Source: the human T2T-CHM13v2.0 reference genome, Homo sapiens
Length of the DNA: 64,000 nt
Direction: 5' to 3'
Assembly: GCA_009914755.4 (NCBI GenBank)
Contig: CP086569.2
Location: 576,001-640,000, forward strand
The position numbers and the translations under genes were made by a program. The notes below the pieces were generated by a model. That model made no database searches. It was not told the origin of the DNA and was given only the letters and a program-made list of their open reading frames with translations. How positions within the stretch are numbered: position 1 is the first letter of the stretch; every line of letters starts with the position of its first letter. Below are positions 49,950 through 60,870 of this stretch, piece after piece.

Positions 49950-50720
49950 TCTCCCTGTCATCTACTTGTCATACATCTACCTATCTCATTTATCTATCAT
50001 CAATCATCTACATATCTGTCTTATCTATCTATTCATCTTATCTATGTATCTATTACCATCATGTATCTATATATCTATCTACCTAAGTATGTATCTGTTA
50101 CCATCATCTATTTATCTATCTATCTATCTACCTATCTATGTATCTATTACCATCATCTATCTATCTATCTATCTATCTTCTATCTACCTTCTATCTACCT
50201 ATGTATGTATCTATTACCATCATCTATCATCTATCTATCTATCTATCTATCTATCTATCTATTACCATCATCTATCTATCTATCTATCTATCTTCTATCT
50301 ATCTTCTATCTACCTTCTATCTACCTATGTATGTATCTATTACCATCATCTATCTATCATCTATCTATCTATCTATCTATCTATCTATCTATCTATCTAT
50401 CTATTACCATCATCTATCTATTTGTCTATCTATCTATCTACCTACCTATCATCTTCTATCTACCTAAGTATGTATCTATTACCATCATCTGTCTATCATC
50501 TATCTATCTATCTATCTATCTATCTATCTATCTATCTATCATCTATCTACCTAAGTATCTATTACCATCACCTATCTTCTATCTATCTATGTATCTCTCT
50601 ATCTTCTATCTATCTATCTATCTATCTATCTATCTATCTATAAGTATCACCATCATCTATGTATCTCTCATCTATTTTATCTATACATCTATCTATCATC
50701 TATCATCCATCTATATGTCT
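49950..50720. repeat. Compound (TATC)n array with recurring taccatcatc and tacctaagtatgtatctattaccatcatc inserts
   Basis: ctatctatctatctatc... It is the reverse-complement orientation of the array at 58250-60870. Confidence 0.95.
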
Positions 50721-51574
50721 CTTTTGTATTATGGCACAATACACATAACATAAGATTTACCTTTTAACAACTTTAAAATGCAAAGTTCAGTGCCACGAAG
50801 TCCATTCCCAATGTTGGGCCACCATCACCACTGTCTCATTTCAAAACATTGTCATCAGATTGCACTGAATGGAGACACCAAGTGATGCCTGCTTAGTCAG
50901 AGAGCAGACGTTTGCTCAGCAAGGGGCTGCGACCAGGAGAATGGCGGACAGAGCATGGCCGAGAAGGCTGTCTTCAGCCTCCAGCCCCAGCCCGTCTCTG
51001 CCATCTGCATCCCTGAACTATTGGAAGAGGGGTTGACTGATGGTTGGCTGCCTGTCATCTCTCCTCTTTGATCACAGCCCTGCTTCTTGTTCAATCTCCC
51101 CCTCTCCCCCACCCCCTGCCAACCATCCAGCCACTGCTCTCTCTCTCTCTCTCTCTCTGATCCCCACGGTGGATGGAAGACCCCACCCCGCATTTCCAAA
51201 CACACAGAATATAGTCTCACTCTTCAAAGCAACGACGAATCTCTATGACTATTTCAAAATCATCAGGAGAGGGAATCTGGGTGAGGTTGACTCAGGGATC
51301 TGGGATCACAGGGCGGGGGTCAGACGAAGCCGGCTTCTGTAGGTGAGGAGGGACGGAGAGCTGACAGAGGCCCTGGGGGCCACACAGCGTGAAGTTTCCA
51401 TTGCAGGAGTGATGACCGCACCAAGAACCTTTCACAGCACGGGTCAACCCAAGGCCATCTCAGAGACGCTTGAATATGCAGCGAGGTTGAGAGCTGTTTC
51501 AGGGCAATGTTCAGATGCAAATCTTCTGCTTCGTTCATAAAATAGAATGAACTAAGATTTTTTTATTTTTTTCT

Positions 51575-51857
51575 TTTTGAGATGGAGTCTTGCTCTGTCG
51601 CCCAGGCTGGAGTGCAATGGCACGATCTCGACTCACTGCAACTTCCACTTCCCCGGTTCAAGTGATTCTCCTGCCTCAGCCTCCCAAATAGCTGGGATTA
51701 CAGGCGCCCGCCACCACACCCAGCTAATTTTTGTAGTTTTAGTAGAGACGGGGTTTCATCGTGTTGGTCAGGCTGGTCTCGAACTCCTGACCTCGTGATC
51801 CGCCCACCTCAGACTCCCAAAGTGCTGGGATTACAGGCGTGAGCCACTGTGCCCAGA
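51575..51857 (-). mobile_element. Alu SINE
   Basis: tttttgagatggagtcttgctctgtcgcccaggctggagtgcaatggcacgatctcgactcactgcaacttccacttccccggttcaagtgattc... ...gtgagccactgtgcccag. Confidence 0.9.
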
Positions 51858-52115
51858 TGGCTTTGCTATTCCTATCTGTGCCTGAATAAGCCGCCTCTTT
51901 GAGGTCTTCAATGAATGGTTGTTGAATGAAGGAGTGAGTACGTGGCTTGTTCGGCACATTTCAGCCAAGGATGTTCCACGAAGTGTCAACCATTCTTTCA
52001 ACAATCCATTCATGATCGAGTGAATAAGATGAAATGACATCATGGAATCAATAAGATGAAAAAGCTCAAGAGGAAATAATGAAAGCACAATCATTGTCAG
52101 GAAAACAAGGGCATT

Positions 52116-57365: not shown

Positions 57366-57676
57366 GGCCGGGCGCGGTGGCTCAGGCCTGTAATCCCCAC
57401 ACTTTGGGAGGCCGAGGTGGGTGGATCACGAGGTCAGGAGATGGAGACCATCCTGGCTAACACGGTGAAACCCCGTCTCTACTAAAAATACAAAAAAAAA
57501 TTAGGCGGGCGCGGTGGCGGGCGCCTGTAATCCCAGCTACTCCGGAAGCTGAGGCAGGAGAATGGCCTGAACCCGGGAGGTGGAGCTTGCAGTGAGTCAA
57601 GATCGCACCACTGCACTCCAGCCTGGGCGACAGAGCGAGACTCAGTCTCAAAAAAACAAAAACAAACAAACAAAAA
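57366..57676 (+). mobile_element. AluY-like SINE with a target-site duplication
   Basis: ggccgggcgcggtggctcaggcctgtaatcccc... The flanks read agatactctag upstream at about 57350 and downstream at about 57676. Confidence 0.9.
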
Positions 57677-58249
57677 GATACTCTAGACAAATTGACCTCC
57701 TTAGCAAGGGGACGAGGGACCATTTCTGCTCATCCCTGAGTAGTGGTTTCAGTTCCCTGCCAACCTATGGAATTGTCCAGAAAAGCCCATCACCTTCTTC
57801 TGCAGGAACCAGGAGCCACCTCACCCACTTGTTCCTACAAAGCCTGCCTTTCATGGCTTCTGATGGTTCATTGTACTAGAATGCAACTTCACATGCATGC
57901 TGTAAAGGGTCCTCTTCCCCCATCTGTGCATAGACGTGAGCAATCAATGTGGTTGTAGCTGTCATGCCTCCAGTGCTACATGCCATGGTCAGCCATCCCT
58001 AGCATCCTAGCACAAGAAACCCTTTCTTACCAAAGCAATGGATAGGAGGCTGTCCATCCATTGCTTCCCAAAACCACCTGCTCCTTGTAGTAAATTGTGA
58101 GGATAAACAGGGCAGTGTTCCATTTTGGACTGCCTCTATATATTTAAATTATCTTTGACTTGGGACCCACAAGATTATGGAAGAAGAACATGGGAAGCTT
58201 CCAGGAAACCTGGATGTATTAGTCAGGGTTCTCTAGAGAGACAGAACTG

Positions 58250-60870
58250 ATAAGACGGATGGATGGATAGATAGATAGATAGATAGATAGATAGATAGAT
58301 AGATAGATAGATGGATAGATAGATAGATAGATAGGTAATGGTAGTAGATACATACTTAGGTAGATAGAGGATGATAGATAGATAGATAGATAGACAGAGA
58401 GATGATGGTAATAGATACACACTTAGGTATATAGAAGATAGATAGATAGATAAATAGATAGATAGATAGATAGATAGATAGATAGATAGATAGATAGATA
58501 GATAGATGATAGACAGATGATGGTAATAGATACTTAGGTAGATAGAGGATGATAGATAGATAGATGATGGTAATAGATACATAGGTAGATAGAAGACGAT
58601 AGATAGATAGATAGATAGATAGATAGATAGATAGATAGATAGATTCATAGATACATAGATACATAGATAGATGATGGTAATAATACATACTTAGGTAGAT
58701 AGAAGATAGATAGATGATAGATAGATGATGGTAATAGATACATACTTAGGTAGATAGAGGGAGATAGATAGATAGATAGATAGATAGATAGATAGATAGA
58801 TACATAGATAGATAGATAGATAGATGATGGTAATAGACACATACTTAGGTAGATAGAATATCATAGATAGATAGATAATGGTAGTAGATACATACTTAGG
58901 TAGATAGAATATCATAGATAGATAGATAGATAATGGTAGTAGATACATACTTAGGTAGATAGAGGATGAGAGATAGATAGATAGATAGATAGATAGACAG
59001 ATAACGGTAATAGATACATACTTAGGTAGATAGAGGATGAGAGATGGATAGATAGACAGATAATCGTAATAGGTACATACTTAGGTAGATAGAGGATGAG
59101 AGATAGATAGACAGATAGATAGACCGATAGATAATGGTAATAGATACATACTTAGGTAGATAGAGGATGAGAGATAGATAGATAGATAGATAGATAGACC
59201 GATAGATAATGGTAATAGATACATACTTAGGTAGATAGAAGATGATAGATAGATAGACAGACAGACAGATAATGGTAATAGATACATACTTAGGTAGATA
59301 GAGGATGAGAGATAGATAGATAGGTAGATAGATAGATAGATAGATAGATAGATAGATAGATGATGGTAATAGATACATAGGTAGATAGAGGATGAGAGAT
59401 AGATAGATAGATAGATAGATAGATAGATAGATAGATAGTTAGATAGATAGATGATGGTAATAGATACATACTTAGGTAGATAGAATATCATAGATAGATA
59501 GATAGATAATGGTAGTAGATACATACTTAGGTAGATAGAGGATGAGAGATAGATAGATAGATAGATAGATAGACAGATAATGGTAATAGATACATACTTA
59601 GGTAGATAGAGGATGAGAGATAGATAGATGATAGATAGATAGATAGATAGATAGATAGATAGATAGATAGATAGACCGACAGATAATGGTAATAGATACA
59701 TACTTAGGTAGATAGAAGATGATAGATAGATAGACAGACAGACAGATAATGGTAATAGATACATACTTAGGTAGATAGAGGATGAGAGATAGATAGATAG
59801 ATAGATAGATAGATAGATAGATGATGGTAATAGATACATACTTAGGTAGATAGAATATCATAGATAGATAGATAATGGTAGTAGATACATACTTAGGTAG
59901 ATAGAATATCATAGATAGATAGATAGATAGATAATGGTAGTAGATACATACTTAGGTAGATAGAGGATGAGAGATAGATAGATAGATAGATAGATAGATA
60001 GATAGATAGACAGATAATGGTAATAGATACATACTTAGGTAGATAGAGGATGAGAGATAGATAGATAGATAGATAGACCGATAGATAATGGTAATAGATA
60101 CATACTTAGGTAGATAGAAGATGATAGATAGATAGACAGACAGACAGATAATGGTAATAGATACATACTTAGGTAGATAGAGGATGAGAGATAGATAGAT
60201 GATAGATAGATAGATAGATAGATAGATAGATAGATAGATAGATAGATGATGGTAATAGATACATACTTAGGTAGACAGAGGATGAGAGATAGATAGATAG
60301 ATAGATAGATAGATAGATAGATAGATAGACCGATAGATAATGGTAATAGATACATACTTAGGTATATAGAAGATGATAGATAGACAGACAGACAGACAGA
60401 TAATGGTAATAGATAGATACTTAGGTAGATAGAGGATGAGAGATAGATAGATGATAGATAGATAGATAGATAGATAGATAGATAGATAGATAGACAGATA
60501 ATGGTAATAGATACATACTTAGGTAGATAGAGGATGAGAGATGGATAGATAGACAGATAATGGTAATAGATACATACTTAGGTAGATAGAGGATGAGAGA
60601 TAGATAGATAGATAGATAGACCGATAGATAATGGTAATAGATACATACTTAGGTAGATAGAAGATGATAGATAGACAGACAGACAGACAGATAATGGTAA
60701 TAGATACATACTTAGGTAGATAGAGGATGAGAGATAGATAGATAGATAGATAGATATAGATAGATAGATAGATAGATAGATAGATAGATAGATAGATAGA
60801 TAGATGATGGTAATAGATACATACTTAGGTAGATAGAAGATAGACAGATACTGGATAGATAGACGATGTA
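58250..60870. repeat. Compound (GATA)n array of about 2.6 kb with the recurring insert gatRatggtaatagatacatacttaggtagatagaggatgagagatag and a higher-order periodicity of about 0.4-0.5 kb
   Basis: gatagatagatagatag...gataatggtaatagatacatacttaggtagatagaggatgag... Units carrying gatagaccgatagataatgg recur at about 59175, 59690, 60085 and 60620. This produces the YLSIYLSIY ORFs. Confidence 0.95.

What the first reader, a model, noticed from the sequence alone, without database searches (positions are those of the whole stretch)
49950..60870. Inverted pair of compound GATA arrays bracketing 7.5 kb
The array at 49950-50720 is written as (TATC)n with tacctaagtatgtatctattaccatcatc inserts. The 2.6-kb array at 58250-60870 is (GATA)n with gatgatggtaatagatacatacttaggta inserts. 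These inserts are exact reverse complements of each other. The two arrays are therefore inverted copies of the same compound repeat, flanking a unique segment that contains CpG-retaining islands. Large inverted repeats separated by a few kb are substrates for inversion polymorphism through non-allelic homologous recombination and for hairpin or cruciform-mediated instability. Smaller GATA arrays in both orientations also lie at 5850, 23570 and 25740.
Basis: seen in the sequence. Interest (0 to 1): 0.6.

Follow-up and report, generated by a model that had tools for sequence, protein, structure and literature searches.

The report
Inverted pair of related GATA arrays
Two stretches of GATA-type simple repeat DNA, 7.5 kb apart and facing opposite ways, share a private 29-base variant block and so are related, but they are ordinary transposon-seeded repeat arrays in primate junk-rich DNA and only a weak candidate for flipping the segment between them.

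Summary
Array A (49975-50714, TATC on +) and array B (58258-60863, GATA on +) both carry the 29-mer GATGATGGTAATAGATACATACTTAGGTA: 5 copies on the minus strand, all in A, and 32 on the plus strand, all in B (≤3 mismatches, 0 expected by chance). It is absent from the window's three other GATA arrays.

The relationship is narrower than claimed:
- No flank homology exists except Alus.
- Overall arm identity (~80%, many registers) is no better than unrelated GATA arrays give (83-89%).
- The longest perfect inverted tract is 69 bp.
- About 2 kb of B is a B-specific higher-order amplification, absent from A.
- The spacer is not unique: it holds five Alus, a 500-bp (GAAA)n, and L1 and LTR fragments.
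- It has no CpG island; the CpG peaks are Alus.

New finding: each array begins at a different transposon "microsatellite birthplace". A starts at the poly(A) end of an old L1 fragment. B starts at the simple-sequence site of a MaLR-like LTR, the same site expanded in two other LTR copies here.

Published constraints on identity and spacer make NAHR inversion or cruciform instability unlikely, and no likelier than for 131 nearby inverted Alu pairs. This is an ordinary compound micro/minisatellite. Interest is low.

The parts
49975..50714 (-). Array A. A compound GATA array read on the minus strand, with about 9 insert-anchored units of 45-83 bp. It is degenerate and contains its own 2-unit duplication (units at 50408/50344 and 50266/50218).
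   Evidence: TRF; motif hits; unit decomposition
58258..58828 (+). Array B, proximal part. It has 6-7 heterogeneous units that use the same GATGATGG junction as array A. It holds the rare variants shared with A (GGTAATAGATACTTAGG at 58522; GATAGACAGATGATGG at 58508).
58829..60863 (+). Array B, distal part. A higher-order repeat of six unit classes arranged in blocks of 627, 370, 425 and 558 bp. Its derived variants are absent from A: GATAATGG x20, GAGGATGAGAGAT x17, GACCGA x6, GACAGACAGACAG x7, GAATATCATAG x5. Several units are byte-identical copies.
   Evidence: longest exact direct repeat is 146 bp, 59176-59321 vs 60055-60200
50472..50540 (-). Best shared patch on the A side. This is the longest perfect inverted match (69 bp) and pairs with B 58465-58533.
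   Evidence: strict-scoring HSP of 79 bp at 98.7%
58465..58533 (+). Best shared patch on the B side, the partner of A 50472-50540.
50723..50869 (-). A 5'-truncated 3' terminus of an old L1-type element. Its last base before the poly(A) tail directly abuts the inner end of array A.
   Evidence: nhmmer with a recalled L1 3'-end consensus, positions 37-184 of 185, E 7e-18. Other copies of the same element end lie at 11173-11345, 15427-15622 and 62545-63021. The family name is from memory.
58217..58278 (+). The 5' end (consensus positions ~1-60) of a MaLR/MLT1-like LTR. Array B starts at its internal TA/GA simple-sequence site. The LTR's 3' ~430 nt are missing.
   Evidence: Recalled consensus: nhmmer E 7e-4, blastn 8e-8. 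Profile built from three window copies: E 1.5e-8, with no 3' remainder in 47-64 kb. Copies at 7023-7055 and 44355-44393 were found by BLAST without any consensus.
50715..58257 (.). The 7.5-kb spacer. It contains the L1 fragment; Alus at 51574-51854(-), 52116-52321(+), 54249-54527(-), 54934-55221(+) and 57366-57656(+); a (GAAA)n array at 52314-52814; and the LTR 5' end. It shows no coding signal, no Rfam family and no CpG island.
49681..49907 (+). A purine-rich (AGGA/AGAA)n microsatellite directly outside array A.
   Evidence: TRF; sequence

Best explanation
These are two related compound GATA(/GACA) micro-minisatellite arrays in an Alu- and VNTR-dense primate region. They are neutral repetitive DNA, not a functional element.

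Shown:
1. Each array begins, in GATA orientation, at a classic microsatellite birthplace of a different ancient transposon. A starts at the poly(A) end of an L1 3' fragment. B starts at the internal TA/GA simple site of a MaLR-like LTR, and two other copies of that LTR in the window have also expanded at this site.
2. The shared 29-35-nt insert is itself a block of mutated GATA units that became part of a longer repeating unit of 45-115 bp.
3. The arrays share array-internal sequence only.
4. A resembles B's proximal 0.6 kb.
5. B's distal 2 kb is a later amplification of 5-9-unit blocks, specific to B.

Inferred:
1. GATA tracts change length by replication slippage.
2. B grew by unequal exchange between its own direct repeats. 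This is the dominant instability mode and makes B a probable length-polymorphic VNTR.
3. The shared insert reached both sites by transfer of array-only sequence. The route was either ectopic gene conversion or template switching between two inverted GATA tracts, or a small inverted duplication confined to the array.
4. At today's divergence the pair is a poor substrate for NAHR inversion or cruciform formation.
For: - The motif is private to the two arrays, on opposite strands, with 0 expected by chance.
- The insert is 8 edits from (GATA)n, where same-composition shuffles average 12.4 (0.2% reach 8). Its local alignment score to GATA is 30 against 9.8±2.9, and it shows no similarity to the adjacent L1 or LTR.
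- Flank homology consists of Alus only.
- The L1 3' end abuts A, E 7e-18.
- The LTR 5' end abuts B, E 1.5e-8. Arrays at 5849-6915 and 23589-23681 sit at the same LTR site.
- The unit decomposition shows the higher-order repeat and identical units in B.
- The derived variants are confined to distal B.
- Exact direct repeats within B reach 146 bp, against 69 bp for the inverted A/B match.
- Rare variants occur once in each array: at A 50566 and 50497, and B 58522 and 58508.
- Literature: retrotransposon tails and internal proto-microsatellites seed microsatellites, and GATA repeats mutate at 2-4e-3 per generation (PMC3812793).
Against: - Only the homology among copies within the window is computed.
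- The route by which the insert came to be in both arrays is not resolved.
- The LTR's missing 3' part shows that some rearrangement or deletion touched B's outer edge, which the model does not explain.
- No population or outgroup data could be consulted, so length polymorphism and the absence of an inversion are inferred, not observed.
- The species and locus are unidentified.
Confidence: 0.7

Rival explanations
1. The arrays are large inverted repeats that act as present-day substrates for recurrent inversion of the 7.5-kb spacer by NAHR, and for hairpin or cruciform instability.
For: - The arrays are inverted, with a 740-bp shorter arm and ~80% gapped identity. That just reaches the permissive ≥200 bp / ≥80% criterion used to map rearrangement-prone repeats (PMC11794170).
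- The 69-bp perfect tract is longer than in any nearby inverted Alu pair (≤42 bp).
- The repeat structure offers many pairing registers.
- In long single-stranded DNA, inverted repeats with 75% identity and 30-kb spacers still cause rearrangements in yeast (PMC10164571).
- A derived insert shared by arrays with unrelated flanks hints at a past exchange.
Against: - No inverted tract exceeds ~120 bp at more than 92% identity.
- Validated inverted-repeat-mediated inversions break in near-identical tracts, e.g. 782 bp at 99.9% (PMC3961182).
- In wild-type double-stranded DNA, 86% and 75% identity lower inverted-repeat-induced rearrangement 58-fold and 1,087-fold, and 1.5-20-kb spacers lower it 31-47-fold.
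- A:B pairing energy (-417 to -444 kcal/mol) equals that of A against plain (GATA)185 (-434) and is ~54% of a perfect duplex.
- Motif-less GATA arrays are just as similar to each arm.
- 131 inverted Alu pairs lie within 10 kb of each other in this window, and two have spacers of 100-406 nt.
- Neither array folds on itself.
Confidence: 0.12
2. A single ancestral array was split by an inversion with one breakpoint inside the array. This left two inverted halves bracketing the inverted segment.
For: - There is no flank homology at all.
- The LTR that hosts B is truncated exactly at the array, and its 3' ~430 nt are absent from 47-64 kb. This is consistent with a breakpoint in the array.
Against: - A split gives one half the original upstream flank and the other half the original downstream flank. 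Here both arrays begin, in GATA orientation, at an upstream-type transposon landmark on their inner sides: the L1 tail for A and the LTR 5' part for B.
- The LTR 3' remainder is not beside A, even with a profile search using --max at E≤50.
- A resembles B's inner (proximal) part, not the outer end it would have adjoined.
Confidence: 0.12
3. The arrays arose independently by convergence, or the pair is an assembly artefact (a misjoin inside GATA repeats that creates a false inverted copy).
For: - GATA arrays arise often. This window has five, and a second inverted pair (23589 and 25740) lies 2 kb apart.
- Long simple repeats are hard to assemble.
Against: - A shared 29-mer that is 8 edits from GATA, plus two further rare variants shared once each, cannot plausibly be convergent. 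Shuffles expect 0.
- The arrays differ in length, unit composition and flanks, so neither is a trivial copy of the other, as a misjoin would give.
Confidence: 0.04

Closest known systems
Compound/interrupted tetranucleotide microsatellites of the GATA-GACA (Bkm-type) class
   Same: Both have tandem GATA units with interspersed GACA tracts and variant interruptions. Both change length by slippage at high rates: GATA at 2-4e-3 per generation (PMC3812793). Bkm is defined as GATA/GACA arrays (PMC3215666, PMC2346481).
   Different: Here a 29-35-nt block of mutated units has become a fixed part of a longer 45-115-bp unit, so the arrays behave as minisatellites with embedded microsatellites. No sex-chromosome association or protein binding can be assessed.
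Minisatellite/VNTR arrays with higher-order repeat structure
   Same: Unit classes recur in a fixed order in blocks of 370-627 bp. Some units are byte-identical, which implies recent unequal exchange or conversion. The window holds many other VNTRs.
   Different: The units are built from a degenerate microsatellite and vary mainly in the length of the internal GATA run. A smaller, older relative lies inverted 7.5 kb away.
Transposon-seeded microsatellites (poly(A)-tail and internal proto-microsatellite births)
   Same: A abuts an L1 3' end. B, and the arrays at 5849 and 23589, sit at one simple-sequence site of one LTR family. Both birth routes are described for retrotransposons (PMC3812793).
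   Different: The review covers non-LTR elements, whereas B's host is an LTR. The arrays, at 0.7-2.6 kb, are far larger than typical tail-born microsatellites. Two arrays with different hosts share a private variant block.
Inverted repeats that mediate polymorphic inversions (InvFEST-type) and quasi-palindromes that cause fragility
   Same: Two inverted homologous arms flank a few kb.
   Different: Arm identity is ~80% rather than above 90-99%. The perfect tract is 69 bp rather than hundreds of bp. The spacer is 7.5 kb rather than the ≤100-200 bp needed for cruciform extrusion (PMC3961182, PMC10164571).

Membership tests
GATA/GACA (Bkm-type) compound microsatellite | Tandem arrays of GATA tetranucleotides | tested here: met
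   TRF reports period 4, with 195 and 688 copies. Pure GATA runs of ≥3 units make up 27% of A and 33% of B.
GATA/GACA (Bkm-type) compound microsatellite | Interspersed GACA tracts | tested here: met
   GACAGACAGACAG occurs 7 times in distal B. A has only single GACA units.
GATA/GACA (Bkm-type) compound microsatellite | Sex-chromosome enrichment or Bkm-binding protein association | not testable with these tools
   The chromosome of origin is unknown, and no primate genome or binding data were available.
Minisatellite / VNTR with higher-order repeats | Tandem units of roughly 10-100 bp with a recurring multi-unit order | tested here: met
   B has 34 units of 47-115 bp. Six unit classes recur in blocks of 627, 370, 425 and 558 bp, and identical 59-, 63- and 71-bp units are repeated.
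Minisatellite / VNTR with higher-order repeats | Copy-number polymorphism among individuals | not testable with these tools
   No population assemblies were available.
Transposon-seeded microsatellite | The array abuts a retroelement poly(A) end or an internal proto-microsatellite site | tested here: met
   The L1 3' end finishes at 50723, next to A (E 7e-18). The LTR 5' end at 58217-58278 leads into B (E 1.5e-8). Two other LTR copies are expanded at the same site. The family names come from memory.
Segmental duplication / NAHR-competent inverted repeat | ≥1 kb at ≥90% identity (the SD definition quoted in PMC11794170), or long near-identical tracts at breakpoints (PMC3961182) | tested here: not met
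   The shorter arm is 740 bp with ~80% gapped identity. The best tracts are 79-86 bp at ~98% and 107-122 bp at 92-94%.
Permissive rearrangement-prone inverted repeat (PMC11794170) | ≥200 bp at ≥80% identity | tested here: inconclusive
   HSPs of 654-854 bp at 79.3-82.0% straddle the threshold. Unrelated GATA arrays score the same or better.
Cruciform-forming palindrome / quasi-palindrome | Short spacer (tens to ~200 bp) and high arm identity | tested here: not met
   The spacer is 7,543 bp. Identity is ~80% with frequent indels. Pairing energy is 54% of a perfect duplex and equals that against plain GATA.
CpG island (claimed in the spacer) | ≥200 bp, GC ≥0.5, CpG o/e ≥0.6, and not a repeat | tested here: not met
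   Four of the five qualifying stretches coincide with Alus, and the fifth is a single 200-bp window at 52851-53050.

The most novel reading that the evidence does not exclude
The two arrays were born independently, A from an L1 tail and B from an LTR simple-sequence site. They later exchanged compound units by ectopic gene conversion between inverted GATA tracts 7.5 kb apart. That would be direct sequence evidence that inverted microsatellites recombine with each other. By extension, the spacer may have flipped, or may still flip, between orientations in the population.
Probability: 0.2. Interest if true: 0.45.

Novelty: new member of a known kind. Interest (0 to 1): 0.2.

Why it matters
The practical value is modest. 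Array B is probably a highly length-polymorphic compound VNTR that would confound short-read mapping and STR genotyping. The window is also a clear example of ancient transposon sites (L1 and Alu tails, an LTR simple-sequence site, an LTR internal segment) seeding kb-scale tandem arrays. The one point of wider interest is that two arrays with different transposon hosts share a private variant block. If that reflects ectopic conversion between inverted microsatellites, pangenome data could readily test whether such pairs drive small inversions. On present evidence the pair is no better a rearrangement substrate than the many inverted Alu pairs around it.

Tried and rejected
1. Exact-pattern scans for the 29-mer and a 22-mer core in metagenome, GTDB genome and viral contigs found nothing. 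This is uninformative, because those collections hold no primate genomes.
2. Full-text searches for the insert and for four VNTR units returned only chance primer matches or nothing, so the locus stays unidentified.
The ten longest non-repeat ORFs in 48-63 kb gave no Pfam family, and Rfam at gathering threshold gave nothing in 48-64 kb.
4. I tested whether the inverted repeat extends into the flanks as a segmental inverted duplication. It does not: only Alus match.
5. I tested whether arm identity exceeds generic GATA similarity. It does not.
6. I tested whether the insert derives from the adjacent L1 or LTR. It does not, since scores fall within shuffles.
7. I searched for the LTR's 3' remainder beside A or beyond B, which would support the inversion-split model. 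It was not found, even with a profile built from window copies.
8. I considered L1 3' transduction of the array and rejected it. In L1 sense orientation, A is followed by T-rich sequence, not A-rich sequence.
9. A fuzzy-regex flank search timed out and was replaced by BLAST.
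Full report
**What is there.** The window is primate-type DNA. A recalled Alu consensus finds 48 Alu segments in 64 kb, and Tandem Repeats Finder lists many kb-scale VNTRs. TRF places period-4 arrays at 49975-50714 (ATCT phase) and 58258-60863 (GATA phase), separated by 7,543 bp. I call these A and B. The quoted 29-mers are exact reverse complements. With up to 3 mismatches, GATGATGGTAATAGATACATACTTAGGTA occurs 37 times: 32 on the plus strand, all in B, and 5 on the minus strand, all in A. 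Shuffles expect 0. Core k-mers of the insert occur nowhere else in the window, including the three other GATA-type arrays at 5849, 23589 and 25740.

**How similar the arms really are.** BLAST of the A region against the B region finds homology outside the arrays only between Alu copies, in both orientations. The inverted similarity stops at the array edges, so this is not a segmental inverted duplication. Within the arrays, A aligns to B at 79-82% gapped identity over 650-850 bp, and it does so almost equally well in more than 15 registers. The control is decisive. The three GATA arrays that lack the insert align to A and B at 83-89%, so overall identity is generic and only the insert is specific to this pair. 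The longest perfect inverted tract is 69 bp, A 50472-50540 against B 58465-58533. Under strict scoring the best patches are 79-86 bp at ~98% and 107-122 bp at 92-94%.

**Internal anatomy.** Anchoring on the insert splits B into 34 units of 47-115 bp and A into 9 units of 45-83 bp. Each unit is insert + short variant linker + (GATA)2-12.
- B's first 0.6 kb (58258-58828) is heterogeneous and uses the GATGATGG junction found in all A units.
- From 58829 onward, six unit classes recur in a fixed order in blocks of 627, 370, 425 and 558 bp. Several units are byte-identical: a 63-mer three times, and a 59-mer and a 71-mer twice each.
- Diagnostic variants are confined to this distal part: GATAATGG x20, GAGGATGAGAGAT x17, GACCGA x6, GACAGACAGACAG x7, GAATATCATAG x5.
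- Two rare variants occur once in each array: GGTAATAGATACTTAGG, and GATAGACAGATGATGG. In B both lie in the proximal part.

A is therefore related to B's proximal part, and about 2 kb of B is a later amplification specific to B. Exact direct repeats inside B reach 146 bp, twice the best inverted A/B tract. Unequal exchange within B is thus the favoured recombination mode.

**Nature of the insert.** The 29-mer is 8 edits from perfect (GATA)n, whereas same-composition shuffles average 12.4 and only 0.2% reach 8. A 44-nt version scores 30 against (GATA)20 compared with 9.8±2.9 for shuffles. It scores within shuffles against the adjacent L1 and LTR sequences. It is therefore a block of mutated GATA units that became part of a longer repeat unit.

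**Transposon anchoring (new).** BLAST of B's inner flank found two further copies of tattagtcagggttctctagagagacagaac, at 7023-7055 and 44355-44393. In all three copies, TA-rich or tetranucleotide simple sequence follows immediately, and the upstream sequence is unrelated.
- Copy 1, minus strand 7053-5454 (E 9.5e-22): ~1.1 kb of (TA)n + (TAGA)n is inserted at consensus positions ~38-60.
- Copy 2, minus strand 23603-20574 (E 1e-22 to 1e-25): the (ATCT)n array 23589-23681 sits at the same site, and the 50-bp VNTR 20819-23512 derives from LTR positions ~118-217.
- Copy 3, minus strand 44391-43223: interrupted by Alus.
- Copy 4, plus strand 58217-58295: positions 3-60 only, running straight into B.

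A profile built from the window's own copies confirms the 5' end at 58217-58278 (E 1.5e-8). It finds no 3' remainder anywhere in 47-64 kb. Separately, A's inner flank 50723-50869 (minus strand) matches positions 37-184 of a recalled 185-nt old-L1 3' terminus (E 7e-18). The L1's last base before its poly(A) tail directly abuts A, and other copies of that L1 end occur in the window. So both arrays begin, in GATA orientation, at known kinds of microsatellite birthplace: a retroelement tail and an internal proto-microsatellite (PMC3812793). The two host elements are different.

**Origin.**
- A duplication that included flanks is excluded.
- A single array split by an inversion predicts one original upstream flank and one original downstream flank, with the LTR 3' part beside A. 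Instead both inner flanks are upstream-type landmarks and the LTR 3' part is absent.
- Convergence is excluded by the private insert and the shared rare variants.
- What remains is transfer of array-only sequence between the two sites. The route could be ectopic conversion or template switching between two inverted GATA tracts, or an inverted duplication whose ends fell within the array.

I cannot separate these routes without outgroup genomes. The LTR's truncation at B's outer edge remains unexplained.

**The spacer.** It is not unique sequence. It contains five Alu segments (1.4 kb), a 500-bp (GAAA)n array at the tail of the Alu at 52116-52321, the L1 fragment and the LTR fragment. No 500-bp window meets GC>0.5 with o/e>0.6. 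With 200-bp windows, four of the five qualifying stretches are Alus, and Alus hold 59 of the spacer's 155 CpGs. The ten longest non-repeat ORFs have no Pfam match, and no Rfam family reaches threshold.

**Instability claim.** This cannot be tested directly here, so I weighed it against published constraints.
- The permissive genome-wide map of rearrangement-prone repeats uses ≥200 bp and ≥80% identity. It finds hundreds of thousands of inverted pairs, about three quarters of them SINEs (PMC11794170). A/B sits at that floor.
- Validated inverted-repeat-mediated inversions have breakpoints in highly identical tracts, e.g. 782 bp at 99.9% (PMC3961182).
- In wild-type yeast, lowering Alu inverted-repeat identity to 86% or 75% cuts rearrangements 58-fold or 1,087-fold, and spacers of 1.5-20 kb cut them 31-47-fold. 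Only in long single-stranded DNA do 75% identity and 30-kb spacers remain active (PMC10164571).
- Predicted DNA pairing of A with three B segments is -417 to -444 kcal/mol. A with plain (GATA)185 gives -434, a perfect complement -805, and shuffles -50 to -62. Neither array folds on itself.
- The window has 131 inverted Alu pairs within 10 kb of each other, including pairs with spacers of 406 and 100 nt.

**Verdict.** These are ordinary, transposon-seeded compound GATA/GACA micro-minisatellites. B is probably a length-polymorphic VNTR, and the pair is a weak inversion or fold-back substrate. Database scans and literature sequence searches gave nothing, so the locus is unidentified and all population-level statements are predictions.

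Noticed in passing
window 20574-23603 (minus strand): The 50-bp VNTR at 20819-23512 (54 copies, with a 451-bp higher-order period) is a tandem amplification of an internal segment of a MaLR-like LTR (consensus positions ~118-217). The LTR's 5' and 3' parts flank it, and an (ATCT)n array sits at 23589-23681, at the LTR's simple-sequence site.
   Followed up: partly
window 5454-7053 (minus strand): Another copy of the same LTR family has ~1.1 kb of (TA)n (5976-6915) plus (TAGA)n (5849-5971) inserted at consensus positions ~38-60. This is the same site where array B starts.
   Followed up: partly
window 784-4890, 7765-9197, 16300-18516, 35579-36762, 40289-40816, 40872-41836, 47079-48214: VNTR density is exceptional. 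The arrays are a 42-mer x97, a 104/314-mer x14, a 27/54/81-mer x80, an 89-mer x13, (CTCCTC)n x85, a 356-mer x2.8 and a 142/280-mer x8. No TTAGGG arrays are present, so a subtelomeric location is suggested by this density alone and not shown.
   Followed up: no
window 9730-10589 and 52314-52814: Large A-rich tetranucleotide arrays sit exactly at Alu poly(A) ends. (TTCT)n x209 abuts the tail of the minus-strand Alu at 10593-10866, and (GAAA)n x128 abuts the plus-strand Alu at 52116-52321.
   Followed up: no
window 54249-54527 / 54934-55212 and 62241-62528 / 62629-62902: These are closely spaced inverted Alu pairs. The first is 86% complementary with a 406-nt spacer, and the second has a ~100-nt spacer. 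By published spacer rules they are better hairpin candidates than the GATA arrays.
   Followed up: partly
window 23589-23681 and 25740-25959: A second inverted pair of GATA-type arrays (ATCT, then GATA) lies ~2 kb apart. It lacks the 29-mer insert. The 25740 array also carries GACAGACAGACAG tracts.
   Followed up: partly
window 60864-61300: B's outer flank is unique sequence with no match to the LTR's 3' part. The LTR hosting B is therefore truncated exactly at the array, which implies an unexplained deletion or rearrangement at this junction.
   Followed up: partly
window 58250-60870 and 49950-50720: The arrays contain 288 (B) and 82 (A) matches to the WGATAR GATA-factor motif. This follows trivially from the repeat unit, and no evidence of binding or function was sought.
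   Followed up: no
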